In this document: in pieces, positions 13,001-43,136 of the stretch
Numbering within the stretch: the stretch's first letter is position 1
Layout of the letters: every line of letters begins with the position of its first letter
Assembly: GCA_016839555.1 (NCBI GenBank)
Contig: JAEOUA010000001.1
Span: 160,001-224,000, forward strand
Length of the DNA: 64,000 nt
Direction of reading: 5' to 3'
DNA from: Promethearchaeota archaeon
GTDB taxonomy: Archaea; Asgardarchaeota; Lokiarchaeia; Sigyniarchaeales; SOKP01
Translations under genes and position numbers: made by a program
The notes under the pieces: model-generated
What the model saw: the letters and a program-made list of their open reading frames with translations, nothing else
Databases searched by the model: none
What the model was told of the DNA's origin: nothing

Positions 13001-13892
13001 CCAATTCTTCGGTGATCTCTGTTGGAAATTCTACCTCACGTCTTTTATCGGAACTCTCCGGGATGTGATGTACTGTACTATAATTTTTTTTTGGGAACAA
13101 TCCTTTTCGATTAAGAATCACAATATCCTCTTTAGAAATTTCTCTTAAAGTCTTCCAAACAGTCATTGGCTTACCATTGGAATCCTTACTCCAACATAGT
13201 ACAGGATGGTTTTCCGATCCCTTAATTGAATAACCTTGTTTGGTGACCACCTGGATGATATTGTGAACTCCAGAATCAAAAAATTTTGTTGCTCTGTTAA
13301 TATTCCCTTTATAAGAAAGAATCTCAATATCTATATCTCCTTCATAACCTTCGGACACGATTGATTGAAGCATATAATTATTATTCATTTCGATATTTTT
13401 AATGTCCTTTTGAATACCAATCTTTTTACTTAAAATTGAGGAGGTCTTATTTCTAACTTTCTCTGAAAGCTTTTTTATTGGGATCAAACCCTCTCCAGTG
13501 AGGATAAGAGTATCACCTGTTACGCAGTACCTCATGGCTGCTGGTGGATCGCCGTCTATAGAGCCAAAATTACCTTGAGGATTGATTAATGAGTATCTCA
13601 TGGAAAAGTCTTGTGCCATACGTACAAGGCTGTTATAAACTGCAGCATCACCGTGAGGGTGATATTTCCCTAAGGTATCTCCCACGATTCTTGCAGACTT
13701 TACATGAGGTCTATTATAAAATTGATTATTATCCGTCATAGACCAAATAATTCTTCGATGAACTGGTTTTAATCCATCTCGCACATCAGGAATAGCTCTC
13801 CCAACAACTACAGACATCGCATAGTCAATGTAGCTTTCTTTCATTTCTCTCTTTAATAAAATTTCCTTAATATTTTCGTTTTCGGTTGTCAA
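10032..13892 (-). CDS. gyrA: DNA gyrase subunit A, intein-containing (about 810 aa after splicing)
   Basis: RAIPDVRDGLKPVHRR, YHPHGD, AAMRY...TEAR, GyrA-box-like QHRGGRG, C-terminal beta-pinwheel repeats. Confidence 0.97.
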   Translation of the reverse strand: MTTENENIKEILLKREMKESYIDYAMSVVVGRAIPDVRDGLKPVHRRIIWSMTDNNQFYNRPHVKSARIVGDTLGKYHPHGDAAVYNSLVRMAQDFSMRYSLINPQGNFGSIDGDPPAAMRYCVTGDTLILTGEGLIPIKKLSEKVRNKTSSILSKKIGIQKDIKNIEMNNNYMLQSIVSEGYEGDIDIEILSYKGNINRATKFFDSGVHNIIQVVTKQGYSIKGSENHPVLCWSKDSNGKPMTVWKTLREISKEDIVILNRKGLFPKKNYSTVHHIPESSDKRREVEFPTEITEELAFSLGALVAEGSISDTVQQRLSFNNKDHEYYEKVKNGLLNSFPGIFLYERPEYEGWKEFSLHYRDVLDFLYSIGLDPVKSDEKEIPFSVLRSSKSVVASFLQGLFERDGSIQIITDKRHGGKSSNLNYTSESIKLHHQLKYILLCFGIITSHLIPDPRNDTYRITILGMESKLRFADEIGFFSSRKSEKLEELREIDGTRLSKTDFIPYLADYFKGKYNYRFNEYFQKQNIDRYNSLKKKINHIKTFIEAYEVSLLEELIENNYLFQEIDSINHLSEDHVYSIRVDSDCHSFTANGFINHNTEARMSRIASELVEDIDRETVEFQPNFDNTLKEPIYLPSKIPNILINGTKGIAVGMSTSMPPHNITEVCEGIIASIDNPDISLEELMEIIKGPDFPTGGIITNPSGIHNAYSSGSGKIKIKGKIELEEKDNRRRLVITEIPYLLNKSSLLKKIAKLIKEGVIEDVSDLRDESDRKGMRIVLELKEKAQPEIIENKLYKRTQLFNSFNIKNLVLIENGKLPKILTLKELIEEYINHRLDIIYKRNEYALKKAKKRLHKVKGLIIALNNIDNIVQMIKNAKDKNDAKIKLMNAYNLTEIQVKAILQMPLSRLTNLEQQKLFDEQKALTNQIEEIKKILESKEKRLNIIKQELAELMETYGDERRTQIEDSEPIRNMQKKDFIKKEPTMVILTKNHYVKRISVKSYRAQHRGGRGKKGMEVGEEDFINDLFVCSTHDNILFFTSKGRVYSIKCFEIPQQTRIAKGKPIVNIIPLRDNEKISEMIPINNFNNNNRLIMVTENGIVKKIRLKIFSKVRKTGIKAQRIRKDDSLVSVKRLTNELQDIFIATKKGYAIRFDESELRELGRPAIGVKGADLRDGDSVVDTLLVSNDDIILTITKNGIGQRTYVKEYRKTGRGAKGVYNINLADDDSVIAVKIAKEKDIIIGTEKGQVIRVPVESVRITHRKAKGVRVINLYKDDSVSGIGKCAKQL
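12099..13526 (-). mobile_element. GyrA intein (476 aa) with LAGLIDADG homing endonuclease domain
   Basis: Starts CVTGDTLI right after catalytic Tyr (AAMRY), block B SENHPVL, LAGLIDADG blocks LGALVAEGS and FLQGLFERDGS, block F VYSIRVD, ends INHN followed by Thr. Confidence 0.95.
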
Positions 13893-13964
13893 AAAAAGAC
13901 CCGTTCTTTTTGAATTTAAGATTTATATTAAAAATAAATATAAGATTATATAATTTCTAACTAG

Positions 13965-15974
13965 TTAAATATCAAGAACAGAGACCTCATCATAATTATC
14001 AATTATAAATTTTCGTCTAGGCTTTACTTCTTTTCCCATTAATTGCGTGAAAATTTTATCGGTTTCCAAGTAATCCTCGTAAATAACGCGCTTGAGGACC
14101 CTTGTTTCTCTGTTCATTGTTGTTTGATATAACTCATCTGGAGACATTTCTCCCAGTCCTTTGTATCTTTTAATATTTATTGCACTTGAATCTTTTAACT
14201 CATATTTTTCCATAAGTTCTTTAATATATTCATCCCTCTGTCTGTCTGAATATACATATTTACCCGTTTTTTTATAATTAAAATAATATAATGGAGGTGC
14301 TGCGACATATAAATGTCCATTATCGATTAAAGGGCGCATATATCTAAAGAAAAATGTAAGCAGAAGGGTTTCTATATGGGCTCCATCCACATCTGCATCG
14401 CAAAAGATTATGACTTTATTATATCTTAAACTATCCAAATCAAAGTCTTCATCGTTCACTCCCTGAACCCCAATCCCAAGAGCTTTTATAATAGCTAAAA
14501 TTTCATTATTTTTGAGAATTCTGTCTATTCTGGCTTTTTCTACGTTTAAAATTTTACCTCTTAACGGCAGAATCGCTTGGTAATTTCTATCTCTGCCCTG
14601 TTTAGCACTTCCTCCAGCACTATCACCCTCTACAATAAAGATTTCACATTCTTTAGGATCATTAGAAGAACAATCTGCCAATTTTCCTGGCATTCGTGCA
14701 TTATTAAGAACTGATTTTCGCCTTATTAACTGCCGAGCTTTTTTCGCCGCTTCTCTAGCTTTTTTAGCATCAATCGATTTATTTATGATTTTCTTACCAA
14801 CCACAGGATTATTTTCTAAAAATTTCATTAAATCTTCAGTAAGGACTTGGCTTATTGCTTGGCGAGCCTCTGGATTTCCTAATTTTATCTTTGTTTGACT
14901 CTCAAATTGAGGATCTGGTAATTGAATAGACACAACTGCGGAAAGCCCTTCTCTCGTATCACCCCCACTTAAAGTGAGACCTTTATACTTTTTTCCCATA
15001 TATTCTTCGATATAACTATTCAAGGTGCGAGTTAAGGCAGACTTGAATCCGGTAAGATGTGTTCCTCCCTCTATCGTATTTATAGTATTACAATAAGTTA
15101 AAATGTTTGTTTGATACCCTTGGTTATATTGCATCGCAATTTCAACTCTGATACTATTTTTTTCCCCTTTTTTCGTCTCATCAATATATTCATTTTGAAT
15201 ATAAATGATTTCGTCATGGAGTGGTTGTTTTTCTTCATTTAAATGAGCTATAAACTCTTTTAACCCTTCCTCATAATGAAATGCTTTTTGTTCTTCAGTG
15301 TTCTTGTCGTAAATTTCAAACTTTGCCTGAGGGGTAAGAAATGCTAGTTCACGCATGCGATTAGCTATCGTGGAAAACTGAAATATTGACTCTCCCTCAT
15401 TGAACTCAAAAATTTCATCATCAGGGTAAAATCTAATATTTGTTCCCTGCTTTTCTTTGGGACTGTCCATTATTATTGGATCTGAAGCTTTCTTTCCCCG
15501 AGAAAATTTCTGCTTATAACATTGACCATCTCGGTAAATTTTAAGATCTAACCATTTTGATAACGCATTTACGACTGAAAGGCCGACTCCGTGAAGCCCC
15601 CCTGAAATTTTATACATTTTATTATCAAATTTTCCTCCCGCGTGTAAATGTTCCATAATTACTTCCACTGCGGGTTTATTAAATTCTTCATGAATATCTA
15701 TTGGTATTCCTCGCCCGTTATCTCTTACTTCTACGGAGTTATCCTCATGAAATATAACTCTAATATGGTCAGCATAGCCACTAATAGCTTCATCCACGCA
15801 GTTATCAATGACTTCCATAACAAGGTGGTGAAGACCTCTTGCCCCTGTATCGCCTACATACATACTTGGCCTCTTTCTGACACCTTCCAAGCCTTTCAAC
15901 ACTTTTATGCTTTTTGCATCGTAGTGATTTTGCTCAGGTTCAGTTAGGTCCTCAATCCCCTTTTTTTCTGCCAT
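13965..15974 (-). CDS. gyrB: DNA gyrase subunit B
   Basis: YDAKSIKVLKGLEGVRKRPSMY, EVIDNCVDE, DNGRGIP, SGGLHGVG, VEGDSAGG, PLRGKILN, DADVDG, RYKGLGEM. Confidence 0.98.
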   Translation of the reverse strand: MAEKKGIEDLTEPEQNHYDAKSIKVLKGLEGVRKRPSMYVGDTGARGLHHLVMEVIDNCVDEAISGYADHIRVIFHEDNSVEVRDNGRGIPIDIHEEFNKPAVEVIMEHLHAGGKFDNKMYKISGGLHGVGLSVVNALSKWLDLKIYRDGQCYKQKFSRGKKASDPIIMDSPKEKQGTNIRFYPDDEIFEFNEGESIFQFSTIANRMRELAFLTPQAKFEIYDKNTEEQKAFHYEEGLKEFIAHLNEEKQPLHDEIIYIQNEYIDETKKGEKNSIRVEIAMQYNQGYQTNILTYCNTINTIEGGTHLTGFKSALTRTLNSYIEEYMGKKYKGLTLSGGDTREGLSAVVSIQLPDPQFESQTKIKLGNPEARQAISQVLTEDLMKFLENNPVVGKKIINKSIDAKKAREAAKKARQLIRRKSVLNNARMPGKLADCSSNDPKECEIFIVEGDSAGGSAKQGRDRNYQAILPLRGKILNVEKARIDRILKNNEILAIIKALGIGVQGVNDEDFDLDSLRYNKVIIFCDADVDGAHIETLLLTFFFRYMRPLIDNGHLYVAAPPLYYFNYKKTGKYVYSDRQRDEYIKELMEKYELKDSSAINIKRYKGLGEMSPDELYQTTMNRETRVLKRVIYEDYLETDKIFTQLMGKEVKPRRKFIIDNYDEVSVLDI

Positions 15975-28043: not shown

Positions 28044-30806
28044 CTAATTCTCTTTTGTTAAATTTAATTCTTCTCTCAATTCCATCAGCTTTTTTTTTGT
28101 TTTTTCATCATCCGGCTTCTTCATTAATCTTTTCTGATAAAATAGGATATTTTCATATTTATATTCTAATTTATTGAATAATTGCACCCATAGATTAAAT
28201 CCCTCCATTAAATCTATTATATCCTCATCCTCAGCGAATATTTTTATATCTTCTCTTATTGCTTCCTTTAAATAAGGAGAAGACCTGAATTTTTTCATGG
28301 ATATACCCTGTTTTTTTATTAATTCTTCATTTACTCTATTAATGAATGCTTCTAGTTCATTCTTCCAATATATATCTCTTTTATTAATTTTGTGAATCGT
28401 ATCTTCAATCCATTTTACTTCTTTAGCCGAGATGGTAGATTTTTTTATTAAAATTTTTTTAATTTTTTGAAATTCAGAATTAAATTTTTCAATATAATTA
28501 TAAACTCGTCTGTTAAACTCGTGAAAACTAGCATTATAATCATTTGCGAAAACTATTTCTTCATTCGTAAAAGTTAATGTTTTTTCATCAAATTGTCCTT
28601 TTAATTTTCCAGCTTCGTAAAGATGATAAAAAATTTCTTTAAGAAGACTAATGTCATTAGGGGATAATTCTTTTTCATAAAAAAAATCATATAAGGAAAA
28701 AATAAATATTTCAGATAACATTATATTTTTTATTCCTCGCTCTGTGTAAAACCGTATTTCATTCTCTACTTCGTAAAAAATCCCCTTTATTTTTTCAGAT
28801 TTTTGTAATTCTTCAATCAACTCTTTCATTAATTTCGAATTTACATCATAGTTGCCTAATGAAATGAAATCTTTAGCGGATGATTCCTTTTTGATAAATT
28901 GTTTTATTTTCTTTTTTGCATTCTCTATTTTTGATGGATTAAAGAGTAACACTTCTCCCTTTTTTAAATATGATACTCCTAAAGAATTAATAAACTCAAA
29001 AAAGGACTCATAATCCATACCTGTTTTTTCCATATATTTTGATATCTTTATTTTATCTTTCTTTTTAATTTCATTGGCTATAGAACTAACTTTTTCATCC
29101 AATTCATTTTTTAATGTATGCTCCTCAATATTTAGTTTAGTAGCTAATTGTTCAATTTTTTGAACTTTTTCTCGTGAGTCTCTCATCTGATCAATTTTTT
29201 CAAGCTCAGATTTTATATATTTTGAATAATAAAATTTATCTTTAGATATATTCCAAATTCCAGTTCTTTCATCTATATATGTAGAGAATATATCTTTTAA
29301 CAATAATTCACTTAGCTGTAATTTTTTTGAGATTTTTTTTATATCAAAATATCCGATAATTTTTGAGTTATGCAGCTCTTGCTCGAATTTAATTTTTCCA
29401 ATATTGGTTAACCAACTAGTACCCTTATGAAATTTCGTTAAATATTCATTTGGCAAAAGTCGTACCAATTTTAAAAAGGATGGTGTTGTTAATTTCCCCC
29501 GATATTTTTTTAAATCAATACTGGCTTCCCTAGTAGCAATCTCGGAAATTTCTTGCTTAATGTTGGGCAAATTATAAAAAATCTCCTTCTTTTTTCCAAC
29601 CAATAAGAGATTTTCTTCATTTTCTACAAGTTCTTTTATACATTTATGAATATACTTTAGGGGAAGATAATTATAATCTTTTATAGATATTGTTCCTTTT
29701 TCCTTCAGATCACCTAATAAGGTCGAATAAATAAATTTAAAAGGATAGAAATAGAAATCTGAAAAATATCCTTGAATATGTCCTAATCTTAATAAGGTTT
29801 CAATAAATAAGGCAATATCTGGAGATTCTAAAACATTCGAAAAAATTTTTAATATTTCTTCATGGGAAATCTTTCTATTTTGTTCAAAAAAATCTAATAC
29901 TTTATCCCTTTCTAACTCATAGAAATATATTTTATTAGTTTTTTGATTATTAGTATAAAAGTAAAGTTCCTTCTCTTTTAAACTTGAATTTTTAAAGTCC
30001 TTTAAATATTCTTTAAAGGTTATATTATTTTCTTTTCTAATTTCAGTAAAATCGTACCTTTTCATAATGAATACATTTTGTAATGTCTCTATTAAATTAT
30101 CCTTTTCTTGCTCCTTATTATTGGTTAAGTGTACTTTTATCTCAGGGAATAGCGTCTGGAGTAGTGAAAGTAAACCTAATTTTAGTTTATCCATTTTGTT
30201 ATTCTCTATTGATTTGAGTATTTGAACTGAATAAGCTCTTATAGAATAAAGCTGTCTAAAATTGTAATTATTGCACTGACTAAGGAAATTAATGATTGAT
30301 AAGATATTATCAGTATTTTCATCTTTAATTTCGATTCCTAGAGCATCTAATAAAGTGTTTTTATTATTACATATTGATCTAGGATTTTTCTTTACCATTC
30401 GATCTAAAAAAAAATAGCAATTGTCTCTTATATCTTTTTTATTGGTTAATAATAATTTAGCAAATATATCATAATAGTTTTGTTTTAAAAGTTTAGGGTG
30501 ATGTAAGAGATAAAATCCTAAAATTATAATTGAATTAACCTTTAATTTAATATTTTCTGAATTTATGAGTGATTCAATTTTCCCAATAAAAGAAGAATTG
30601 AGTATTTCAGGATAAATTTCAATCAATATACTTAAAATATAAGTAATTGGTACCTGCAGATTTTCATTTTTTTCCAAAAGAAGTTGAAACTCCTTTATTT
30701 TTGATGCAAGCTTTCCTTGTTTATCTTTTTCTATATACTTATTTATTTTTTTTACATAGGAAAGTAATTCTGGGAACTCTTGAAAATTTTCAACTTTAAA
30801 AGACAT
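28044..30806 (-). CDS. HEAT/ARM repeat + tandem winged-helix (PCI/UFL1-like) + coiled-coil protein
   Basis: HEAT-like LINSENIKLKVNSIIILG and LLLTNKKDIRDNCYFFL; repeated WH-like units (GHIQGYF, GYFDIKKISKKLQL, EKIKGIF, GKLKGQFDEKTLTF). Confidence 0.6.
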   Translation of the reverse strand: MSFKVENFQEFPELLSYVKKINKYIEKDKQGKLASKIKEFQLLLEKNENLQVPITYILSILIEIYPEILNSSFIGKIESLINSENIKLKVNSIIILGFYLLHHPKLLKQNYYDIFAKLLLTNKKDIRDNCYFFLDRMVKKNPRSICNNKNTLLDALGIEIKDENTDNILSIINFLSQCNNYNFRQLYSIRAYSVQILKSIENNKMDKLKLGLLSLLQTLFPEIKVHLTNNKEQEKDNLIETLQNVFIMKRYDFTEIRKENNITFKEYLKDFKNSSLKEKELYFYTNNQKTNKIYFYELERDKVLDFFEQNRKISHEEILKIFSNVLESPDIALFIETLLRLGHIQGYFSDFYFYPFKFIYSTLLGDLKEKGTISIKDYNYLPLKYIHKCIKELVENEENLLLVGKKKEIFYNLPNIKQEISEIATREASIDLKKYRGKLTTPSFLKLVRLLPNEYLTKFHKGTSWLTNIGKIKFEQELHNSKIIGYFDIKKISKKLQLSELLLKDIFSTYIDERTGIWNISKDKFYYSKYIKSELEKIDQMRDSREKVQKIEQLATKLNIEEHTLKNELDEKVSSIANEIKKKDKIKISKYMEKTGMDYESFFEFINSLGVSYLKKGEVLLFNPSKIENAKKKIKQFIKKESSAKDFISLGNYDVNSKLMKELIEELQKSEKIKGIFYEVENEIRFYTERGIKNIMLSEIFIFSLYDFFYEKELSPNDISLLKEIFYHLYEAGKLKGQFDEKTLTFTNEEIVFANDYNASFHEFNRRVYNYIEKFNSEFQKIKKILIKKSTISAKEVKWIEDTIHKINKRDIYWKNELEAFINRVNEELIKKQGISMKKFRSSPYLKEAIREDIKIFAEDEDIIDLMEGFNLWVQLFNKLEYKYENILFYQKRLMKKPDDEKTKKKLMELREELNLTKEN

Positions 30807-33229: not shown

Positions 33230-34732
33230 ATGTCAAAACCTCCCCAAGGCGCTCCGATAATTCTGGATATTGGTTCAGGATATGTAAAGGCAGGATTTGC
33301 TGGTGAACCAAATCCAAGTCATATCTTTCCTTGTATCACAGGAAAGAGAAAATATAAATCGGTGATGGTCGACGCTGGAACGCAAATGCATGATATATAT
33401 GTAGGTGATGCGGCTATGAAACTAAGAGGTGTTTTAAACCTAAATCATCCAATTCAGAGAGGCATAATAACTAGTTGGGAGGATTATTATGAGATCCTTA
33501 ATCATGTATTTTATACCCTTTTAAGGATTGAGAACCCACAAAATCATCCTATTATATATGTAGAATCCGTGTCCGAACAAAAAGATATTCGAGAATATAT
33601 AGCAAGAGTTCTATTCGAAACCCATCAATTCCATAGCATAATTATGATTCCGAGTCCCCTCCTTTCTTGTTTTTCCGTGGGATTAACCACAGCTCTTGTG
33701 ATTGAGAGTGGAGTTGGGATTACATGGATAGTACCTATCATAAATGGGCAAATAATATATAGAGCGATTCAGAGGTTGGAGCTTGCGGGGATTGATATAA
33801 ATCATAATTTAGAATTACTTCTCATGCGTGAGGGAATAAGTTTAAGCTCCTCAGCATCAAGTGAAATTTTAAGACAAATAAAAGAAGAAAATTGCTATTT
33901 CGCATTGGATCCAGATAATCCTAATAAAACGATTGAAAAAGTAAAATATCCCTTACCAGATGGATCAATGATGGAAATCGCTCCACATATCTTATATCAA
34001 GCACCAGAAGTGATATTTGACCCTTCTATGATCGGTTCAAATTCACCAAATTTACCCGAAGCTATAATAAAATGTTTGAATTCGATAGATAAATCTTATT
34101 GGGGAGATTTATTAACACATATCATATTGTCAGGCGGTAATTTTCTTCAAAATGGATTTAAGGAAAGATTAGAATTGGAATTAAATTCTCAGATCTCTCA
34201 ATATGGACCTATACCTAAACCTCACAAAATTGAAACAGAAAGACAAGTGAAGACTCTTCAACCAGTGAAAAGCACTAAAAAGTTTCATGATACCTGTCCA
34301 AAATGTGGAAGGATTGTAGATCTCTCAGATGGAAAAATAGAATGTCCTGAATGCGGAGCTTCTCTGCAAATCACTCAAATCGATATTGAAATTAAAAATT
34401 TAGCCCCATTAAAGTGTCCTTTATGTAATAAGGAAATAGATGATAAAACATCACTTTTTTGCCCATATTGTGGACATAAACTAGCAAAAGATAGACCAGA
34501 AGTGCTCTCATCATCTGATAAAGTTCCAGAAATTCTTGAATATTTTGAATCCTCTTCAAAAATATTACATTTTTTCTTACCAGATAATTTACAAACAGCT
34601 ATTTTTAAGGGTGCTTCAATTTTAGGCAGTTTGCCTTCCTTCGATCAAATTTTTATTACTCACGCACAATATCAACAGAATAGAGAAATATTATCACGGG
34701 ATATCAGCGAAATATTTTCTTTACATTTTTAA
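33230..34732 (+). CDS. Actin-related protein with inserted tandem zinc ribbons
   Basis: ILDIGSGYVKAGFAG, YVGD.A, HPIQRG, LFET, IESGVG, LAG.D, IKEENCY, LPDG, PEVIF.P, IILSGG, GASILGSL; insert with CPKC/CPEC/CPLC/CPYC. Confidence 0.93.
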   Translation: MSKPPQGAPIILDIGSGYVKAGFAGEPNPSHIFPCITGKRKYKSVMVDAGTQMHDIYVGDAAMKLRGVLNLNHPIQRGIITSWEDYYEILNHVFYTLLRIENPQNHPIIYVESVSEQKDIREYIARVLFETHQFHSIIMIPSPLLSCFSVGLTTALVIESGVGITWIVPIINGQIIYRAIQRLELAGIDINHNLELLLMREGISLSSSASSEILRQIKEENCYFALDPDNPNKTIEKVKYPLPDGSMMEIAPHILYQAPEVIFDPSMIGSNSPNLPEAIIKCLNSIDKSYWGDLLTHIILSGGNFLQNGFKERLELELNSQISQYGPIPKPHKIETERQVKTLQPVKSTKKFHDTCPKCGRIVDLSDGKIECPECGASLQITQIDIEIKNLAPLKCPLCNKEIDDKTSLFCPYCGHKLAKDRPEVLSSSDKVPEILEYFESSSKILHFFLPDNLQTAIFKGASILGSLPSFDQIFITHAQYQQNREILSRDISEIFSLHF

Positions 34733-34961: not shown

Positions 34962-36353
34962 ATGTCTCGAAAAAAATCTGATGAAATTGGTTTAGAGACT
35001 ACTTTTGGAACACGTGTTGCTTATGCGAATGGAACTTTGGCAGACAATCTTTCTTTGCAGAATTTTTTATTTCTTGGATTCACATTCTATTATACAGTTA
35101 TCGGACTTAATGTTGTTTGGTACGCTCTGGCATTCATTATTTATTCAATCTGGGATGCCATCGATGATCCTATAATTGGGGTGTTATCAGATCGAACTAA
35201 AACAAAATGGGGAAGAAGAAAACCGTGGATTTATCTTTCAGCAATCCCGCTTTGCATATTGATGGTATTAATTTGGACACCACCAACCCTGAATGAATTC
35301 TTTACATTCTTATATTTAACCATAATTCTAATAGTGTTTGATTTAATATTTACAACCTACACAGTAAATTTCAATGGTTTATGGCCTGAAATGTTTCTTA
35401 CAGTAGAAGATAGAAGTTCACTGGGGATTTGGAGAAGCATTTTCACCATTTTAGGAGTTGGACTCGCATTTTTACTCCCCGAAATTGTGATTGGAGATCT
35501 TGTAGCTGCAGATCCTGGAGGATATGTAATAAATGGAATTATTGCAGCAATAATAGTAGGTGCAACAATTGCAATCATGATAAAGTTTGGATGTTTTGAA
35601 AGGAAAGAATTTTCTAAGGATGTGGAAGGTGCTCCAAGTTGGAAAGAATCGTATAGAATAACTTTTAAAAATAAGGCATTTATGATATACTGTGTTATAG
35701 CACTTGCTATCTTTATTGTTTATGGTATCCTTCCCACCGTTCTCCCGCTCTATGCTAAACATATACTTGGTTCAGAGGATCCTGGTTTAATTCTCCTTAT
35801 TGGTTTATTGGTTTCCGCAGCCTCAACACCCTTATGGATGTATTTAAGAAAGAAATTAGGGGTAAGGATATCTTATATAATTTCAGCGTCGTTCTGGGCT
35901 GCATCGTTATTATTATACCTTTTAGCTTTTAATGAATTAACAGGTTATATCTTCATCATTTTTATCGGCATCGGTTTAGGAGGCTCTCTCTATATTTACG
36001 ATCAAGGTATAGCAGAATTAATTGATGACGATGAACTTCGTTCTGGGATTAGTGTTAGAAGAGAAGGTGCTTATTACGGGGTAGTTGCATTATTTAATAG
36101 ATTATCTGGAGCAATTAATTTGATTGTCCTTTCTATTGTGTTTGCAGGTGCAGGCTGGGGGGATTATGAGCTTGCGGATCCTGCTCAGGCGCCTATTATT
36201 CTCCCAATAGTTCAGATTTTCTGGCCAGTCTTCATATTAATAATAGCCGTGATTCTTTTATATTTCTATCCATTAACCAAAGAGAGAGTTGAAGAAAATG
36301 AAAGATTGAAGAAGCAATTACATGATAAAAAAAGAAAAGAAGTTTCTATATAA
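34962..36353 (+). CDS. MFS transporter, glycoside-pentoside-hexuronide (MelB-like) family
   Basis: WDAIDDPIIGVLSDRTKTKWGRRKPW, RREGAYYG, about 12 TM. Confidence 0.92.
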   Translation: MSRKKSDEIGLETTFGTRVAYANGTLADNLSLQNFLFLGFTFYYTVIGLNVVWYALAFIIYSIWDAIDDPIIGVLSDRTKTKWGRRKPWIYLSAIPLCILMVLIWTPPTLNEFFTFLYLTIILIVFDLIFTTYTVNFNGLWPEMFLTVEDRSSLGIWRSIFTILGVGLAFLLPEIVIGDLVAADPGGYVINGIIAAIIVGATIAIMIKFGCFERKEFSKDVEGAPSWKESYRITFKNKAFMIYCVIALAIFIVYGILPTVLPLYAKHILGSEDPGLILLIGLLVSAASTPLWMYLRKKLGVRISYIISASFWAASLLLYLLAFNELTGYIFIIFIGIGLGGSLYIYDQGIAELIDDDELRSGISVRREGAYYGVVALFNRLSGAINLIVLSIVFAGAGWGDYELADPAQAPIILPIVQIFWPVFILIIAVILLYFYPLTKERVEENERLKKQLHDKKRKEVSI

Positions 36354-36462
36354 TAATAACTAATTTTTTTTCAATTTTTATTCTATTTAATAGATTTTAT
36401 AGATTTTAGAACTAAGAAATTTAGAAAAATAAAATGAAAAATGATGATAGAGTGAGTAATGA

Positions 36463-38433
36463 ATGAGATTAAAATGTGGAGCAGCAAAAGCAAAAATCAA
36501 TCCTCCTGAAGAGGTAGGAGATACTTATATTGCGGGATATCTAACTATGATGGCTCCAAAAATAAAAGATATCCATGATTCCCTTTTTGCTCGAGTGATT
36601 GTTTTATCCGAAGGAAATAATAAAATTGCATTAGTTTCATTAGAACTCATTGGTCTGTTTGCGGATGTTATTGAAAAAGTGAAAGATAGATTATCTGCAT
36701 ATGGTTTTCCGTATAAAAATGTGTACATCTTCTCAACTCATACCCATGCTGGACCAGATACAATGGGTTTATGGGGGCCAATAATAGGAAAATCTGGAAT
36801 TAATAAGAAATATATGATATTTCTTATAGATACTATTATTCAATTAGTTCTGGAAGCAGAGAAGAAGTTGGAGGAAGTTGATGTATATTTCTCAAAATCT
36901 GAACTGCCAGAATTAATTGAGAATTATCGAATAAATGCAATGGTGAATGGAAGTCTTAAATTTGTAAAATTTCTTTCAAATGATAAATTAATTGCGAGTC
37001 TTTGGTCTTATACTGCTCAACCCGAAATTACAACACGAGAAAATCTTTCCATCTCAGGAGATTATCCAGGGTTAGTTTCAAGAATGATTGAAGAAAATTA
37101 TGGAGGAACATCATTATTTGCCCTAGGATTATGTGGTGCTCAGTCTCCAATCTATTGTGAACAAGGATATGATAAGATGGAAATTTTTGCTAAGGAAATA
37201 TTTTCTAAAATCAAATTAATTTACGATAATCATAAGAAAATCAATATATCACCTATAGAGATACGATTTAGAAAAATTAAATTAAAATTAGAAAACCCCG
37301 ACTTCCAATTATTATATACCTTAGGAATTTTCGATAGAGAGTATGAAAATGAAAAAATTGTAAGTTCTGTCAGTAAAGTTAGAATAGGCGATCTTGATTT
37401 AATTAATATCCCAGGAGAACCGTTTCCAGATCTTCTTTCAGATATCTTAAATAAGCAAAAAGATATAGAAACTATTATTTTTAGTAATTCCAATGATTCA
37501 TTAGGTTATTTTATTCCTTTAAATCGATGGTCTTTAAAACCTCAAGTGTGGGTTGATTATATAGAAAATGGCAAATTCATTGGCCATGAAACAGAGTCAA
37601 TTGGTGTAGAAGCGGGACAAATTATTAGGAAGACTATAAAAGATTTATTTATCTATAAAACTGTATTAGCTATTGGCCCTCATGCTGATGATTTAACCAT
37701 TTGGGCAGGAGGGACTTTAAAAAAATTATCATCAGAGGGAAATGAATTAATTTGTATAAGAATTACCGATGATTACGCCGATTGTGTGGGATTAACCAAG
37801 GAAAAAGGGATAAAAAGAAACAGAAAAGAAGTCGAAAAAGCATATAGGACTTTAGGAGCAAAGGAAATTATCCATCTTGACTATCCAACAGATACATTAT
37901 CAACAGCAGATTATCATGAATTAAGAGGTAAATTAGTACGCTTAATGAGAAAATACAAACCGAATCTAGTCGTGTCTTTCGATTTGAATGGAACTGATGA
38001 GGAAAATATGGATCATATAATTACCGCTCGAGCTGTTAATGAAGCTTGTTGGCAAAGTTCTTTTGATCTATTCTATACTGAACATTTTGAAGAGGGATTA
38101 GAAATTCATACAGTTGGAGAACGATATTTATTTGCCAGAAATCCAACAGTGTTAAATTTCTATGTTGATATTTCAGATTATATCGAAGACAAAATAAATG
38201 CTATCAATCATCAAAAAACTGTAATGGAGAATTGGTTTCACCAGAATAAATTATTAGCAAGAGCGAATAATTTATATGTTGAGTTATTGGAAGAAGATGT
38301 ACCAAATGCTATCAGAGTGACTTTACTTGTCAAATTAGTGTATGGAGAGATGGGAGAAAAGTATGGTGTGAAATATGCCGAAGAATTTAATAGAATTGAT
38401 GCAGGAATGCTAAAAGATTTAGCAGAGGAATAA
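36463..38433 (+). CDS. Neutral ceramidase-like amidohydrolase fused to PIG-L/LmbE deacetylase
   Basis: N-half: IHD.L.AR, STHTHAGPD, ISGDYPG, PGEPF, LGYF; C-half: AIGPHADD, DH, K..A...H. Confidence 0.8.
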   Translation: MRLKCGAAKAKINPPEEVGDTYIAGYLTMMAPKIKDIHDSLFARVIVLSEGNNKIALVSLELIGLFADVIEKVKDRLSAYGFPYKNVYIFSTHTHAGPDTMGLWGPIIGKSGINKKYMIFLIDTIIQLVLEAEKKLEEVDVYFSKSELPELIENYRINAMVNGSLKFVKFLSNDKLIASLWSYTAQPEITTRENLSISGDYPGLVSRMIEENYGGTSLFALGLCGAQSPIYCEQGYDKMEIFAKEIFSKIKLIYDNHKKINISPIEIRFRKIKLKLENPDFQLLYTLGIFDREYENEKIVSSVSKVRIGDLDLINIPGEPFPDLLSDILNKQKDIETIIFSNSNDSLGYFIPLNRWSLKPQVWVDYIENGKFIGHETESIGVEAGQIIRKTIKDLFIYKTVLAIGPHADDLTIWAGGTLKKLSSEGNELICIRITDDYADCVGLTKEKGIKRNRKEVEKAYRTLGAKEIIHLDYPTDTLSTADYHELRGKLVRLMRKYKPNLVVSFDLNGTDEENMDHIITARAVNEACWQSSFDLFYTEHFEEGLEIHTVGERYLFARNPTVLNFYVDISDYIEDKINAINHQKTVMENWFHQNKLLARANNLYVELLEEDVPNAIRVTLLVKLVYGEMGEKYGVKYAEEFNRIDAGMLKDLAEE

Positions 38434-38477
38434 TATCAGAACTATATATATAAAATTTTTATTTATTTTTTTTATTA

Positions 38478-39521
38478 TTATACTGATTTTATAAATTGAA
38501 TAATTTTTTTTATCTTATTCTGATTTAGGTTCAATCTAGGAGAGTTATAAATCGAATACATTAAATTTTCTTGCCTAACATAATCTTGGATTTTTTTAAA
38601 AGATTTTTTTAAAATTTCAGATGAAATTTCAAGAGATTTTGGAGATATATCCAAGTTAATGTCATTAAAAAATTCTAGAATTTCTTCAATAGAAAATTCA
38701 GCAATATCTTCTTGTAAATAGAGACTGATTAAAATATTCATTCCAATGATTTGGCCATGAATATAATGAGAATGTGTAATAGATTCGATACAATATGCTA
38801 GAAAATGCTCGCTCCCTTCTTCAGGCCTTGCATTTCCCCATTTATTACATAAAGTTACTTCTCGAAAAAATCCTTCAACCAACGCTTTTATTCCTTTATC
38901 ATTAACATCTCTAATATCATTTTTTGATTTCATTAGGTCTTTTGCAATAGTTTTTGCTTGATCAAAAGTATCTTTATCAAATCTTTCATGATTTTCTTTA
39001 TAGGCCAATTTCCAATCCCCCAGAGCAGAAGTTATAGATATCGTATCTGAAACACCTGCTCTATTTAAATATTTGGGGGCCTGCTTTATAAGATCATAAT
39101 CAATTATGATTTTTTTGGGAGAGCTTTCTCCAATATAATTAACGTTATTGTCATATCTCACTGCAATTGAAGAACATAAAAACGCATCCACAGAGATGAT
39201 TGAAGGAACTAATATTAAATCTAATTCAAGTCCAACTTCTTCTTTTAATTTCCATGATAAATATTTAGCGGTATCACAAGAAGTACCCCCTCCTATTCCG
39301 ACAATAGTATAAGAATCATTAAACAAATCTTTTAAGCTGAGATAGAGTTCTCTGAGATGTTTAATATCCATAGAATTATTAAAGCTAACTTTTAAGGGAA
39401 TATTACTAATTTTTGGCTTTAGGATATCCCAAGGTTCCTTCATAGTGACTATTAAACACTTATCTAATGCATTTAATGTCTCTACTGCAATCCCTTTTCC
39501 ATAAATAGGTTTGATAACCAT
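38478..39521 (-). CDS. sn-glycerol-1-phosphate dehydrogenase-like (EgsA/AraM, DHQS-like fold) dehydrogenase
   Basis: GIGGG..DTAK, PSIISVDAF, RAGVSD, EGSEH, HG. Confidence 0.8.
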   Translation of the reverse strand: MVIKPIYGKGIAVETLNALDKCLIVTMKEPWDILKPKISNIPLKVSFNNSMDIKHLRELYLSLKDLFNDSYTIVGIGGGTSCDTAKYLSWKLKEEVGLELDLILVPSIISVDAFLCSSIAVRYDNNVNYIGESSPKKIIIDYDLIKQAPKYLNRAGVSDTISITSALGDWKLAYKENHERFDKDTFDQAKTIAKDLMKSKNDIRDVNDKGIKALVEGFFREVTLCNKWGNARPEEGSEHFLAYCIESITHSHYIHGQIIGMNILISLYLQEDIAEFSIEEILEFFNDINLDISPKSLEISSEILKKSFKKIQDYVRQENLMYSIYNSPRLNLNQNKIKKIIQFIKSV

Positions 39522-39711
39522 ACTTAAATAAAATTTTAGTAATTACTAAGTTCTTTCATTCTTTAAATGTTTAAATGATTTCTTATTCAAAAAAATTAAT
39601 TTGTATTTTTTAGTTATAAATACTAATTTATAAAGAATTAAATGAGTAAATGAAGAATTAATTATTAAAAGTTCATAGCAATTTTAAAATTAAATTTTAA
39701 ATGTGATTTAA

Positions 39712-40758
39712 ATGAAAAATATTAAGGTTGGAATCATAGGCTCTGGATTCATAGCCGAACATCATTGTTATGGATATTCTCTTTTACCAAATGTTGAAAT
39801 AATTGGAGTTTCAGCCTTACATAAAGAAAATCCATTGAAATTAATAAAAAAATTTGACTTAAAATGTGAGTGGTATAAAGATTATCATGAATTATTAAAG
39901 CAGAACTGCGATGTGGTTTCGATTTGCTTACCAAATTATATACATAAAAAAGCTACTATTGACAGTTTACATTCAGGAGCCCATGTGCTTATAGAGAAGC
40001 CTTTAGCTAGAAATCCAGAAGAGGGAATTGAAATGATAGAAGCAGAAAAATCTTCTAATCGTCGAATTTTCTATTGTGAAAATAATATGTATGCCCCCTC
40101 TTTTATTAAAGCCAAAGAAATTATTTCTGAAGGAGCTCTTGGTAATATTTATATGGCAAGAGGAAAAGAACAACATTCAGGTCCGCATTCTGCCTGGTTT
40201 TACAAAAAAGAAAAAGCTGGTGGAGGTGCATTAATAGATTTAGGAATTCATGATATTGCCTGTTTGGTATGGTATTTAGATTGTGAGGTTCTTGAAGTCT
40301 TTTGTCAAACTAGAACTCTAAAGACTGAAAGAGAAAAATTCGGAAAGTGTGAAGTCGAAGATAATGCAGTAGGGATTTTATTATTTGAAAATGATGCTCA
40401 AGTTATTATTGAGGAATCATGGACTGCTCCTGGAGGATATGATATGAGATTCGAAATATTTGGCGAGCAAGGACAAATTAAAGTGTCGCCCACATTTAGT
40501 AATTTAATTAATGTCTACAGTAGGAATGGTTATGGATATGCTCTCGAAAAAGCAGAATCCACTCAAGGGTGGACATTTCCCGTTCCCGCCGAAGCTTGGA
40601 ATTTTGGATATCCACAAGAGATACAGCATTTTATGGATTGCATTATTAATGATAAAAAAACTATAACAAATGGGGAATATGGATTAAAAATTTTAAAAAT
40701 AGTTGATGCAATGTATAAAAGTTCAAGATCAGAAAAACTTGAATCTGTAATCTATTAA
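39712..40758 (+). CDS. Gfo/Idh/MocA family oxidoreductase
   Basis: GIIGSGFIA, IEKPLA, GGGALIDLGIH, VED. Confidence 0.93.
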   Translation: MKNIKVGIIGSGFIAEHHCYGYSLLPNVEIIGVSALHKENPLKLIKKFDLKCEWYKDYHELLKQNCDVVSICLPNYIHKKATIDSLHSGAHVLIEKPLARNPEEGIEMIEAEKSSNRRIFYCENNMYAPSFIKAKEIISEGALGNIYMARGKEQHSGPHSAWFYKKEKAGGGALIDLGIHDIACLVWYLDCEVLEVFCQTRTLKTEREKFGKCEVEDNAVGILLFENDAQVIIEESWTAPGGYDMRFEIFGEQGQIKVSPTFSNLINVYSRNGYGYALEKAESTQGWTFPVPAEAWNFGYPQEIQHFMDCIINDKKTITNGEYGLKILKIVDAMYKSSRSEKLESVIY

Positions 40759-40841
40759 AACAATTTTAAGAGTTTTATTTAACTTCTTTATTTCTTTTTA
40801 GAACTGTTTATATGTAGTTAAAAAAGATATTTCGATTAGCA

Positions 40842-42047
40842 TTACTTTTTTAAAGAACTTATAAAATCAAACACTTTGTCTAATGCTTTTTTCTCTGATA
40901 ATAATATTCTCTGTGGAAATTCAATGCAACGAGAATAAATATCTGACACAATAGGGAAGTTTTTATTATTGCTTTTGAGATCTCCCCAGTTAGCGTTTGA
41001 ATAATCAATACCTTTTCGAAGCTTTATTTCTTTAAAACATCTTAAACTATGAAGTGGAGGGTAACAATTGTCTGTAGGAATTCCATTCTGATTTAATAAC
41101 TTAAAGAACTTCTCTTTACTAATACCTCCAAATTTTTCGGGTCTAAATACGATAGGAAAAATATACCATCCTAATTCTGTTGTTCCAGGAGTGGGCTTCA
41201 TTGTAGTGATCCCCTCTATTTTATTCAATCTTTCTGAAAAATATGTTGCAGTTTCATTTCTTACCTTATGCTGTTTTGGAAATTTTTTCAATTGAGATCT
41301 TAATAAGGCCCCCAAAAATTCACTCATTCGATAATTTGTTCCGTAAACAAAATGTGCATAAGAAAAATGATTTTTCTTTCTCCCACAATCAATAATTGAG
41401 TAAATTTTATCAGCTAATTCGTCATCATTACATATAATTGCGCCCCCTTCTCCACTCGTTAATACTTTTGAGGCTTGAAAGCTAAAAGTGCCAGCATTTC
41501 CCCAATTTCCTGCCCTTTTCCCTTTATATCTGCTACCTTGAGCATGGGCACTATCTTCCACGATTTTAAGATTATTTTTTTGAGCAATATCCACTAATTT
41601 ATCCATCTCTACGGGATTGCCTCCAAGATGAACTGGAATTATTGCTTTAGTTCGTTTGGTAATTAAACCCTCAACTTGATCTACATCCATAACAAAAGTC
41701 TCTGGATTAATATCACAAAAAATTGGTACCGCATTAGCTGCAACTACTGCAGATGCAGAAGCTACAAACGTAAAATCTGAAACAATTACTTCATCACCTA
41801 ATCCTATTCCTAAAGCTAATAATGCGGCCTCGATAGCAACAGTACCGTTAGCTACAGCAATACAATGTTTCGCTTCTTGAAAAGAAGCAAATTCCTCTTG
41901 AAATTTCCAAATATTTTCTCCAGAATGATCTCCTGGAGATCCCGCCCACCATTTGCCAGATTTAACTACATTAGACATTGCTTCAATATCATTTTCATCA
42001 AAAATAGGCCACTCTTGAAAATTCTTCTCTCTTTCTTTTTTAACCAT
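40842..42047 (-). CDS. DegT/DnrJ/EryC1/StrS PLP sugar aminotransferase (RifK/NtdA-like)
   Basis: ANGTVA, PVHLGG, EDSAHAQG, FSFQASKVLTSGEGG, GTNYRM. Confidence 0.93.
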   Translation of the reverse strand: MVKKEREKNFQEWPIFDENDIEAMSNVVKSGKWWAGSPGDHSGENIWKFQEEFASFQEAKHCIAVANGTVAIEAALLALGIGLGDEVIVSDFTFVASASAVVAANAVPIFCDINPETFVMDVDQVEGLITKRTKAIIPVHLGGNPVEMDKLVDIAQKNNLKIVEDSAHAQGSRYKGKRAGNWGNAGTFSFQASKVLTSGEGGAIICNDDELADKIYSIIDCGRKKNHFSYAHFVYGTNYRMSEFLGALLRSQLKKFPKQHKVRNETATYFSERLNKIEGITTMKPTPGTTELGWYIFPIVFRPEKFGGISKEKFFKLLNQNGIPTDNCYPPLHSLRCFKEIKLRKGIDYSNANWGDLKSNNKNFPIVSDIYSRCIEFPQRILLSEKKALDKVFDFISSLKK

Positions 42048-42275
42048 AATAGATTCCCATCATTATCTTATTTTAAAATTTAAAATTATTTACACTATTT
42101 TTAATTTTTTATAAAATCCTAAAATAATCTCATATTCATATAGAAATGCTTCAATTTAAGCAACAAATTAAGATTAATCATATATTCCTTTTTCTTTCTA
42201 ATTAGTATAAAAATTTAAAAAGATCTTTCTGAAATTTAAAGAAATTAAACAATAATGAGAGAAAACATTCAGGAT

Positions 42276-43136
42276 CTATTTTTTAATCCATTTCTCATAT
42301 AAAAAATATGTATTATGCAGTAACATAGCGACGGTCATGGGTCCAACTCCCCCCGGAACAGGAGTGATCTTTTCAACTTTTTCTATAACATCATTGAAAT
42401 CAACATCTCCACATAATTTATCTCCTACTCTATTTATCCCAACGTCTATAATTATGGTGTTTTTCTTTATTTGCTTTTTTTTTATGAAATTTGGTTTTCC
42501 TATTCCAACAATAAGAATATCTGCTTGAAGCGTATAATTTTCAAGGTTTTTTGTATAAACATGACATACTGAAACTGTAGCATCTCTATTTAAAAACATT
42601 TGTGTTAAAGGTCTTCCCAACAGAGTTGAGTGGTTTATAATTGTAATATCTTTTCCTTTAATGGGAATATTATAATGATTTAATAAATTTATAATTCCTT
42701 TTGGGGTGCAAGGAGCCAATTCCTCATTATTATAATAGAGATTACCTAGATTAACGGGATGTAAGCCATCAACATCTTTCTGAGGAATTATATATTTAAT
42801 AATTTCATGAATGTCATTTTGTAAATCGATTGGTAATGGTAATTGCAGCAATATTCCATGAATGTCTTTATTTTGATTTAATATTTTAATTTCTTTTATT
42901 AGTTCTTGTTTAGCTGTATTTTTATCCAATTGAACGATTTTAGTGTCGATCCCAATCTTTTTACATGTCTTCTGTTTGATATTAACATAAATTTTAGATG
43001 CAGGGTCTTCTCCCACTAGAATAGTCGCTAATTTGGGTGTAATACCATATTCTTTCTTTGCCTTTTTTATTTTATTTTCAAGAATTGAATTTAATTCGTT
43101 TGCTATCTTTCTGCCATCAAGAATTTTATTTTCCAA
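42276..43136 (-). CDS. folD: Methylenetetrahydrofolate dehydrogenase/cyclohydrolase
   Basis: ILDG, VGEDPAS..YV, GILLQLPLP, KDVDG, PCTP, DVGIN, GDVD, TPVPGGVGPMT. Confidence 0.97.
   Translation of the reverse strand: MENKILDGRKIANELNSILENKIKKAKKEYGITPKLATILVGEDPASKIYVNIKQKTCKKIGIDTKIVQLDKNTAKQELIKEIKILNQNKDIHGILLQLPLPIDLQNDIHEIIKYIIPQKDVDGLHPVNLGNLYYNNEELAPCTPKGIINLLNHYNIPIKGKDITIINHSTLLGRPLTQMFLNRDATVSVCHVYTKNLENYTLQADILIVGIGKPNFIKKKQIKKNTIIIDVGINRVGDKLCGDVDFNDVIEKVEKITPVPGGVGPMTVAMLLHNTYFLYEKWIKK

What the first reader, a model, noticed from the sequence alone, without database searches (positions are those of the whole stretch)
33230..34732. Actin-related protein with four CxxC motifs (two zinc ribbons) inserted in the actin fold and altered catalytic residues
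Seen: an insert of roughly 115 aa (about 34207-34560) with CPKC, CPEC, CPLC and CPYC between the adenosine-motif helix and the final GASIL motif, at the actin 320s loop of subdomain 3. Phosphate-1 and a D-loop-like segment are retained, but positions matching actin Q137, D157, H161 and H73 read S, V, W and R. Inference: a non-hydrolysing, probably non-polymerising Arp with a built-in interaction or nucleic-acid-binding module, conceptually like insertion-bearing nuclear Arps.
Basis: partly seen in the sequence, partly recalled or inferred. Interest (0 to 1): 0.75.

Follow-up and report, generated by a model that had tools for sequence, protein, structure and literature searches.

The report
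Lokiarchaeal actin relative with zinc ribbons
This is a real actin-like protein, kept across one order of Asgard archaea, that lacks actin's ATP-splitting residues and carries two small zinc-binding modules spliced into one of its two filament-stacking faces; the fusion was listed in a 2020 genome table but I found no functional study, and an end-cap or adaptor role is plausible but unproven.

Summary
Real gene, real insert. Window 33230-34732 encodes a 500-aa actin fold (AF2 pLDDT 82; Z 47 to F-actin) with a 118-aa insert (34208-34561) between actin positions 325 and 326, holding two C4 zinc ribbons. Orthologues occur in 142 of 153 other genomes of one Lokiarchaeia order, including both cultured species, and were not found in 246 other Asgard genomes. 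The pointed face stays Lokiactin-like (54% identity) and the barbed face does not (28%). That suggests a non-polymerising subunit docking on an actin partner's barbed face: either a Lokiactin end-cap or a partner of a second paralogue that keeps key barbed-face residues. Against capping: the L. ossiferum orthologue is expressed but absent from the enriched rows of a published Lokiactin co-IP. DNA binding is unsupported. The fusion is listed in Imachi 2020 (Supplementary Table 9), and this scan has noted the family before in many other genomes.

The parts
33230..34732 (+). Gene for a 500-aa actin-related protein with a zinc-ribbon insert
   Evidence: AF2 pLDDT 82.3; VIA Z 47.3, rmsd 1.8 A over 360 residues to F-actin
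33266..33289 (+). Phosphate-1 loop D13-K20 (actin D11-K18); S14 is kept here but is E/Q in deep-branching members
33350..33373 (+). D-loop segment K41-D48 (pointed face); K41 and Y42 invariant, M46 nearly so, identical to Lokiactin
33425..33436 (+). R66-G-V-L (actin R62-L65), invariant pointed-face contact segment
33458..33460 (+). R77 at actin sensor H73 (R in 96 of 96)
33653..33655 (+). S142 at actin catalytic Q137 (T58, S37, A1 of 96; never Q)
33704..33727 (+). Phosphate-2 loop E159-W166: D154E family-wide, D157V only in this copy, H161W in most
33956..33964 (+). P243-D244-G245 (subdomain 4, pointed face), invariant; also kept in ARP-B, so partly structural
34079..34114 (+). Subdomain-3 barbed-face helix (actin 283-294): D288 lost and R290 changed to W
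34208..34561 (+). 118-aa insert between actin positions 325 and 326; low-confidence linkers around two ribbons
34295..34354 (+). Zinc ribbon 1 (C356, C359, C372, C375), present in all orthologues examined
34415..34471 (+). Zinc ribbon 2 (C396, C399, C411, C414), absent in 6 of 96 including L. ossiferum
34562..34732 (+). Resumed actin fold (actin 326-375): conserved hydrophobic-cleft helix and a short C-terminal helix
32674..33039 (+). Upstream winged-helix regulator (ModE-like by my reading); a conserved neighbour in 84 of 101 loci, with no evidence of a functional link

Best explanation
A non-polymerising accessory actin of one order of Lokiarchaeia. It folds like actin and probably binds a nucleotide structurally, but hydrolyses ATP poorly or not at all. 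It docks with its preserved pointed face (D-loop, R62 segment, subdomain 4) onto the barbed face of a Lokiactin subunit. Its own barbed face is altered and carries the insert, so nothing can add after it. It would therefore cap barbed ends or hold monomers, while the tethered zinc ribbons recruit other proteins. Shown: gene, fold model, insert, conservation pattern, distribution, expression of orthologues. Inferred: nucleotide state, non-polymerisation, the partner, capping, and the role of the ribbons. The idea of an end-cap was reused from earlier scan notes and re-tested here.
For: Identity to Lokiactin at pointed-face positions is 0.54, against 0.28 at barbed-face positions and 0.35 over the core (Mann-Whitney p 0.029 by identity, 0.003 by BLOSUM). 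The pattern holds in every subclade (pointed 0.51-0.60, barbed 0.25-0.36). The control paralogue family ARP-B shows no such bias (0.39 vs 0.34). K39, Y40, R62, V64 and D244 are invariant and M44 nearly so. Y166, Y169, H173, D288 and R290 equivalents are mostly lost. The insert sits on the altered face. Q137 is never retained. The L. ossiferum orthologue is detected in 16 of 16 proteome samples at 16.1 versus 21.7 for Lokiactin, about 1:50 if the scale is log2, which suits a regulator rather than a filament subunit (bioRxiv 10.1101/2025.11.30.690169). Precedent: Arp4 and Arp8 cap actin's barbed end in solution (PMC6167448).
Against: In the published Lokiactin co-IP the orthologue (GNAMCCOK_01005) is absent from all held rows (log2 ratio above -1.06), although a less abundant neighbour is present as background; 841 lower rows are cut from the held file. 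The paper names only profilin, gelsolins and an ARF GTPase as enriched. The interface lists come from my own knowledge of F-actin, not from coordinates. With Gly and Pro removed, the identity test is not significant (p 0.16; BLOSUM p 0.011). Cultured-clade members have a shortened D-loop and a 4-residue deletion near actin 199-202. Several barbed-side positions are conserved in their own right (F143, W290, L294, the cleft helix), so that face binds something too. One basal family keeps E288, K290 and R291. Gelsolin-domain proteins are present and could do the capping.
Confidence: 0.4

Rival explanations
1. It pairs with the second paralogue, ARP-B (this genome C10:130548-131663; L. ossiferum UYP44126). 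Its pointed face binds ARP-B's preserved barbed face, giving a closed, non-polymerising heterodimer or scaffold, conceptually like Arp7-Arp9 or Arp2-Arp3.
For: ARP-B keeps Y143 51/51, Y166 50/51, Y/F169 51/51, H173 50/51, D286 51/51, D288 48/51 and R290 51/51 but loses M44 and K62, the complement of this family. It is confined to the same order and has similar transcript levels in MK-D1 (248 vs 229). It would explain the absence from the Lokiactin co-IP.
Against: ARP-B was not found with this query in families f2 and f4, which have the ribbon protein (few, incomplete genomes). ARP-B's overall face bias is not significant. The two genes are unlinked.
Confidence: 0.25
2. A monomeric adaptor that does not contact other actins. 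The conserved D-loop, cleft helix and ribbons bind non-actin partners, for example at the membrane.
For: Not enriched in the Lokiactin co-IP. The hydrophobic cleft helix is highly conserved. The ribbon type is a promiscuous module in this genome. A gene for a membrane-anchored alpha/alpha-toroid protein follows it in 89 of 101 loci.
Against: It does not explain why the surface D-loop and R62 segment stay identical to Lokiactin. The neighbour gene is not adjacent in this genome (only a distant match on C12), and housekeeping genes are equally syntenic.
Confidence: 0.15
3. It forms its own filament or short oligomer with a remodelled barbed face, displaying the zinc ribbons outward.
For: The fold is complete. 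Barbed-side positions are conserved within the family (mean top-residue frequency 0.66). The linkers are flexible (pLDDT under 50), so the insert need not block stacking.
Against: The pointed face resembles Lokiactin's rather than co-diverging with its own barbed face. The acidic partners of R62 are lost. Abundance is low.
Confidence: 0.12
4. A chromatin- or nucleic-acid-binding Arp.
For: The active-site changes resemble Arp4 (Q137T) and Arp8 (H73R) (PMC3510490). Acidic inserts in Arp4/8 bind histones (PMC6167448), and the cultured orthologues have acidic tails.
Against: The insert is not basic (median net charge 0). Best structural and sequence matches are conventional actins. No conserved chromatin gene in the neighbourhood.
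Confidence: 0.08

Closest known systems
[quoted passage not shown] 2020, Supplementary Table 9 (PMC7015854)
   Same: Same architecture; the MK-D1 genome orthologue (L087, 552 aa from the first ATG) falls in the same clade. Transcribed.
   Different: The table gives only a domain label: no mention of internal insertion, active-site loss or face asymmetry, and no function. The MK-D1 insert is longer (167 aa) with an acidic tail.
Ca. Lokiarchaeum ossiferum UYP44711.1 (499 aa), one of the three non-Lokiactin 'ARPs' in Rodrigues-Oliveira et al. 2023 (PMC9834061)
   Same: Orthologue, identified by the paper's qPCR primers. Same gene neighbourhood. Expressed as RNA and protein.
   Different: One ribbon only, shorter D-loop, position 14 not Ser and D157 not Asp. 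The paper's main text does not mention zinc.
Lokiactin (this genome C1:435578-436723; HC1 actin, PDB 9wc4)
   Same: Same fold, nucleotide loops and pointed-face residues.
   Different: 36-38% identity. Lokiactin keeps Q137, H161, H73, D154 and both faces, and has no insert.
Nuclear Arp4 and Arp8
   Same: Insertions in the actin fold, non-polymerising, Q137T (Arp4) and H73R (Arp8); they cap actin's barbed end in solution.
   Different: Arp8's large inserts lie at the D-loop and hydrophobic plug and cover the pointed end, whereas here the pointed end is free. No zinc ribbons in those inserts, to my knowledge. No evidence of common descent was tested.
Dynactin Arp11 (own knowledge)
   Same: An ARP that keeps one stacking face and thereby terminates a filament.
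   Different: Arp11 caps the pointed end and has lost subdomain-2 contacts; this protein would be its mirror image.

Membership tests
Actin family (PF00022) | Sequence match above the curated cut-off and a complete actin fold | tested here: met
   245.7 bits vs cut-off 27; Z 47.3, rmsd 1.8 A, 360 residues
Lokiactin | Member of the highly conserved pan-Asgard clade | tested here: not met
   About 38% identity; separate clade with 100/100 support
Lokiactin | Q137, H161 and H73 retained | tested here: not met
   S, W, R here; Q in 0 of 96
Lokiactin | Forms filaments and hydrolyses ATP | not testable with these tools
   needs biochemistry
Lokiarchaeial zinc-ribbon ARP (MK-D1 DSAG12_03244, UYP44711) | Actin fold with CxxC ribbon insert at actin 325/326, one clade | tested here: met
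C4 zinc ribbon (PF13240, PF12773) | Two CxxC knuckles with ribbon spacing, above cut-off | tested here: met
   DZR 33.6 vs 27.3; Zn_Ribbon_1 30.5 vs 25
C4 zinc ribbon (PF13240, PF12773) | Binds zinc | not testable with these tools
   invariant Cys only
Nuclear Arps (Arp4, Arp8) | Substituted catalytic or sensor residues with nucleotide loops kept | tested here: met
   one search compared with PMC3510490; also true of ARP-B, so not diagnostic
Nuclear Arps (Arp4, Arp8) | Subunit of an HSA-domain chromatin complex | tested here: inconclusive
   no PF07529 match in the genome, but the search had no positive control
Nuclear Arps (Arp4, Arp8) | Phylogenetic grouping with eukaryotic nuclear Arps | not tested
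   no named eukaryotic sequences were available for the tree
Arp2/3 complex | ARPC2 and ARPC4 subunits in the genome | tested here: inconclusive
   no match, no positive control
Filament end-capping ARP (Arp11-like behaviour) | One stacking face conserved, the other lost | tested here: met
   0.54 vs 0.28 identity; p 0.03 and 0.003, narrow-set identity p 0.16
Filament end-capping ARP (Arp11-like behaviour) | Physically associates with the filament | tested here: inconclusive
   absent from the held, enriched rows of a published co-IP; table truncated

The most novel reading that the evidence does not exclude
One order of Lokiarchaeia evolved its own pair of filament-terminating ARPs. The zinc-ribbon protein caps and tethers barbed ends, and ARP-B, which keeps barbed-face contacts, caps or nucleates at pointed ends. 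That would be a prokaryotic, ARP-based system for filament length and anchoring, parallel to CapZ/Arp11 and Arp2/3.
Probability: 0.15. Interest if true: 0.85.

Novelty: new variant of a known kind. Interest (0 to 1): 0.5.

Why it matters
[quoted passage not shown] This family gives a sharp prediction (one-faced docking) that can be tested on two cultured species with existing antibodies and proteomics. It is limited to one Lokiarchaeia order, so it would show parallel invention, not a direct ancestor of eukaryotic Arps. The domain fusion itself is already on record, which caps the surprise.

Tried and rejected
Assembly artefact: rejected (142 of 153 order genomes; insert GC 0.34 vs 0.35 for the 5' core). 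D157V as a family trait: rejected. 'Q137 is kept' (note e1-5585159): rejected; the Gln seen in 10 sequences aligns to actin 136. ESM Atlas gave no usable hit for the insert. PDB sequence search of the insert gave only generic Cys-knuckle matches. Among the best 150 representatives at 50% identity, none outside this family showed a CxxC insert at this site. Sister grouping with the order's own Lokiactin was rejected (p-AU 0.010) but the branch is long, so the origin is unresolved. The sigma-70 promoter scan was uninformative for an archaeon. ARPC2, ARPC4, HSA and capping-protein searches found nothing, without positive controls. Papers with F-actin interface lists and the Arp4 structure paper were not held. 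ARP-B's identifier in the co-IP table could not be pinned. The first AF2 model (25 sequences, pLDDT 67) was superseded.

Full report
Verdict. Its domain make-up was already listed in 2020. The most likely role is a non-polymerising partner of another actin-family subunit; which partner is open.

Observation. The ORF runs 33230-34732 (+), 500 aa. Pfam finds Actin at 9-324 and zinc ribbons at 355-418. PDB actins align to residues 9-320 and again at 451-484. Against this genome's Lokiactin, the insert is residues 327-444 (nt 34208-34561), between actin 325 and 326. An AF2 model from 84 sequences has pLDDT 82.3, about 90 on both sides of the insert, 63-74 in the ribbons and under 50 in the linkers. 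It matches F-actin chains at Z 47.3, rmsd 1.8 A over 360 residues.

Source and distribution. Named homologues are almost all Promethearchaeota (Lokiarchaeia). A profile search of 400 genomes of the phylum gave orthologue-level matches (E below 1e-100) in 142 of the 153 other genomes of this order. None of the 246 genomes outside it reached that level; their best hits cover only the actin core. The family is one clade (100/100) whose branching broadly follows the family-level taxonomy. Ninety of 96 members have two ribbons. The basal family f4 and the L. ossiferum lineage have one; insert length is 100-173 aa. No other CxxC insert at this site appeared among the top 150 representatives. This genome encodes six actin-fold proteins, including Lokiactin and an 83% identical second copy.

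Active site. In 96 orthologues D11, G13, K18, G156, G158, E214, G301 and G302 are invariant. Q137 is T, S or A, never Q. H73 is always R. H161 is W in 77. D154 is E in 93. D157 is D in 71, so this copy's Val is private. Deep members replace S14 by E or Q, which makes ATP binding less certain in the cultured species. Yeast Arp4 has Thr at Q137 with a structural ATP, while human Arp8 has H73R and low ATPase activity (PMC3510490). So 'hydrolysis-poor' is a reasonable inference and 'non-hydrolysing' is not shown. The paralogue ARP-B has also lost these residues, so the loss is a general ARP trait here.

Stacking faces. In F-actin, subdomains 2 and 4 of one subunit receive subdomains 1 and 3 of the next (PMC9379983); the residue lists I used are from my own knowledge. 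Identity to Lokiactin is 0.54 at 25 pointed-face positions, 0.28 at 33 barbed-face positions and 0.35 over the core (p 0.029 by identity, 0.003 by BLOSUM; narrow sets 0.16 and 0.011). The bias holds in every subclade. ARP-B shows no overall bias (0.39 vs 0.34) but keeps Y143, Y166, Y/F169, H173, D286, D288 and R290 and loses M44 and K62, the complement at those positions. The insert lies on the altered face. A subunit with only a pointed face can add to a barbed end and stop it, or bind ARP-B's barbed face.

Insert. Beyond the cysteines, conserved positions are few: the residues around each knuckle, L343, I384, I386 and an E-F motif at 434-435. Net charge has median 0, range -18 to +7. Forty-two ORFs of this genome match the ribbon pattern, among them a small GTPase-like protein and many with hydrophobic segments. 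This points to a mobile protein-interaction module (inference), not a DNA-binding one.

Published data on orthologues. MK-D1 DSAG12_03244 is listed as fused to a double zinc ribbon, expression 229 versus 501 for Lokiactin (PMC7015854). In L. ossiferum the orthologue is UYP44711.1, by primer match. Flanking molecular weights identify it as GNAMCCOK_01005. It is detected in all 16 proteome samples at 16.1 against 21.7 for Lokiactin. It is absent from the held rows of the Lokiactin co-IP, which cover log2 ratios above -1.06; 841 rows are missing. It was therefore not reported as enriched, and this is the main evidence against capping. It is moderate evidence: caps are rare relative to subunits, and the pull-down may favour monomer complexes.

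Neighbourhood. A conserved block surrounds the gene in relatives: winged-helix regulator, often a CBS protein, the ARP, a membrane-anchored alpha/alpha-toroid protein, FolD, a small unannotated protein, a DRG-type GTPase. In this window the downstream part is rearranged and the toroid gene is not adjacent. I read this as ordinary synteny.

Origin. The clade attaches in an unresolved position among pan-Asgard Lokiactins. Grouping with the order's own Lokiactin is rejected (p-AU 0.010), but the stem is long. A relationship to nuclear Arps was not tested.

Weights. Lokiactin cap or monomer partner 0.40; ARP-B heterodimer 0.25; free adaptor 0.15; own polymer 0.12; nucleic-acid or chromatin role 0.08. 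This scan reported the same family, and the cap idea, on other genomes. I took the idea from those notes and tested it; the co-IP check and the ARP-B complement were not in the notes I saw. Interest 0.5.

Noticed in passing
L212:1-3159 (-) (G128:C2, same class, other order): An alpha-2-macroglobulin-like protein (A2M_BRD, A2M and TED domains) carries a 53-aa piece 72% identical to Lokiactin residues 18-70 and a 12-aa copy of Lokiactin's C-terminus between its BRD and A2M domains. Possibly an actin-derived bait or decoy; the contig was not checked for misassembly. No A2M match in this genome.
   Followed up: partly
L003:5549-6664 (+) (G000 C10): ARP-B, a second order-restricted actin paralogue (L. 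ossiferum UYP44126), keeps barbed-face contact residues, loses M44 and K62, and has S14Q, Q137D and H161R.
   Followed up: partly
L002:5273-6412 (-) (G000 C7): A second Lokiactin copy, 83% identical, with intact catalytic residues; changes are concentrated in the pointed face (0.76 vs 0.91 barbed).
   Followed up: partly
L004:3380-7217 and window 1-2866: A divergent actin-fold gene ends at window position 216. Upstream lie a roadblock/LC7 gene and a 265-aa protein that looks gelsolin-like by eye (no Pfam hit); downstream an 857-aa CHAT-domain protein.
   Followed up: partly
L086:6556-7704 (-) and relatives: The gene after the ARP in 89 of 101 loci encodes a prenyltransferase-type alpha/alpha-toroid protein with hydrophobic N- and C-termini. 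It is about as abundant as Lokiactin in the L. ossiferum proteome (21.5) and not enriched in the co-IP.
   Followed up: partly
window 34962-43136: A block (sugar-transporter-like, hydrolase, dehydrogenases, aminotransferase by my reading) separates the ARP from an inverted folD, unlike most relatives.
   Followed up: no
window 7500-8105 (+): Arf/MglA-like small GTPase, next to gyrase-like genes at 10032-15974.
   Followed up: no
window 28044-30806 (-): 920-aa protein with a weak HEAT-like Cnd1 match, conserved near the ARP in 54 of 101 loci.
   Followed up: no
L210:199-2631 (-) and L211:922-2634 (-): Divergent actin-fold proteins with long C-terminal extensions (810 and 570 aa) in other orders of the class.
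   Followed up: no
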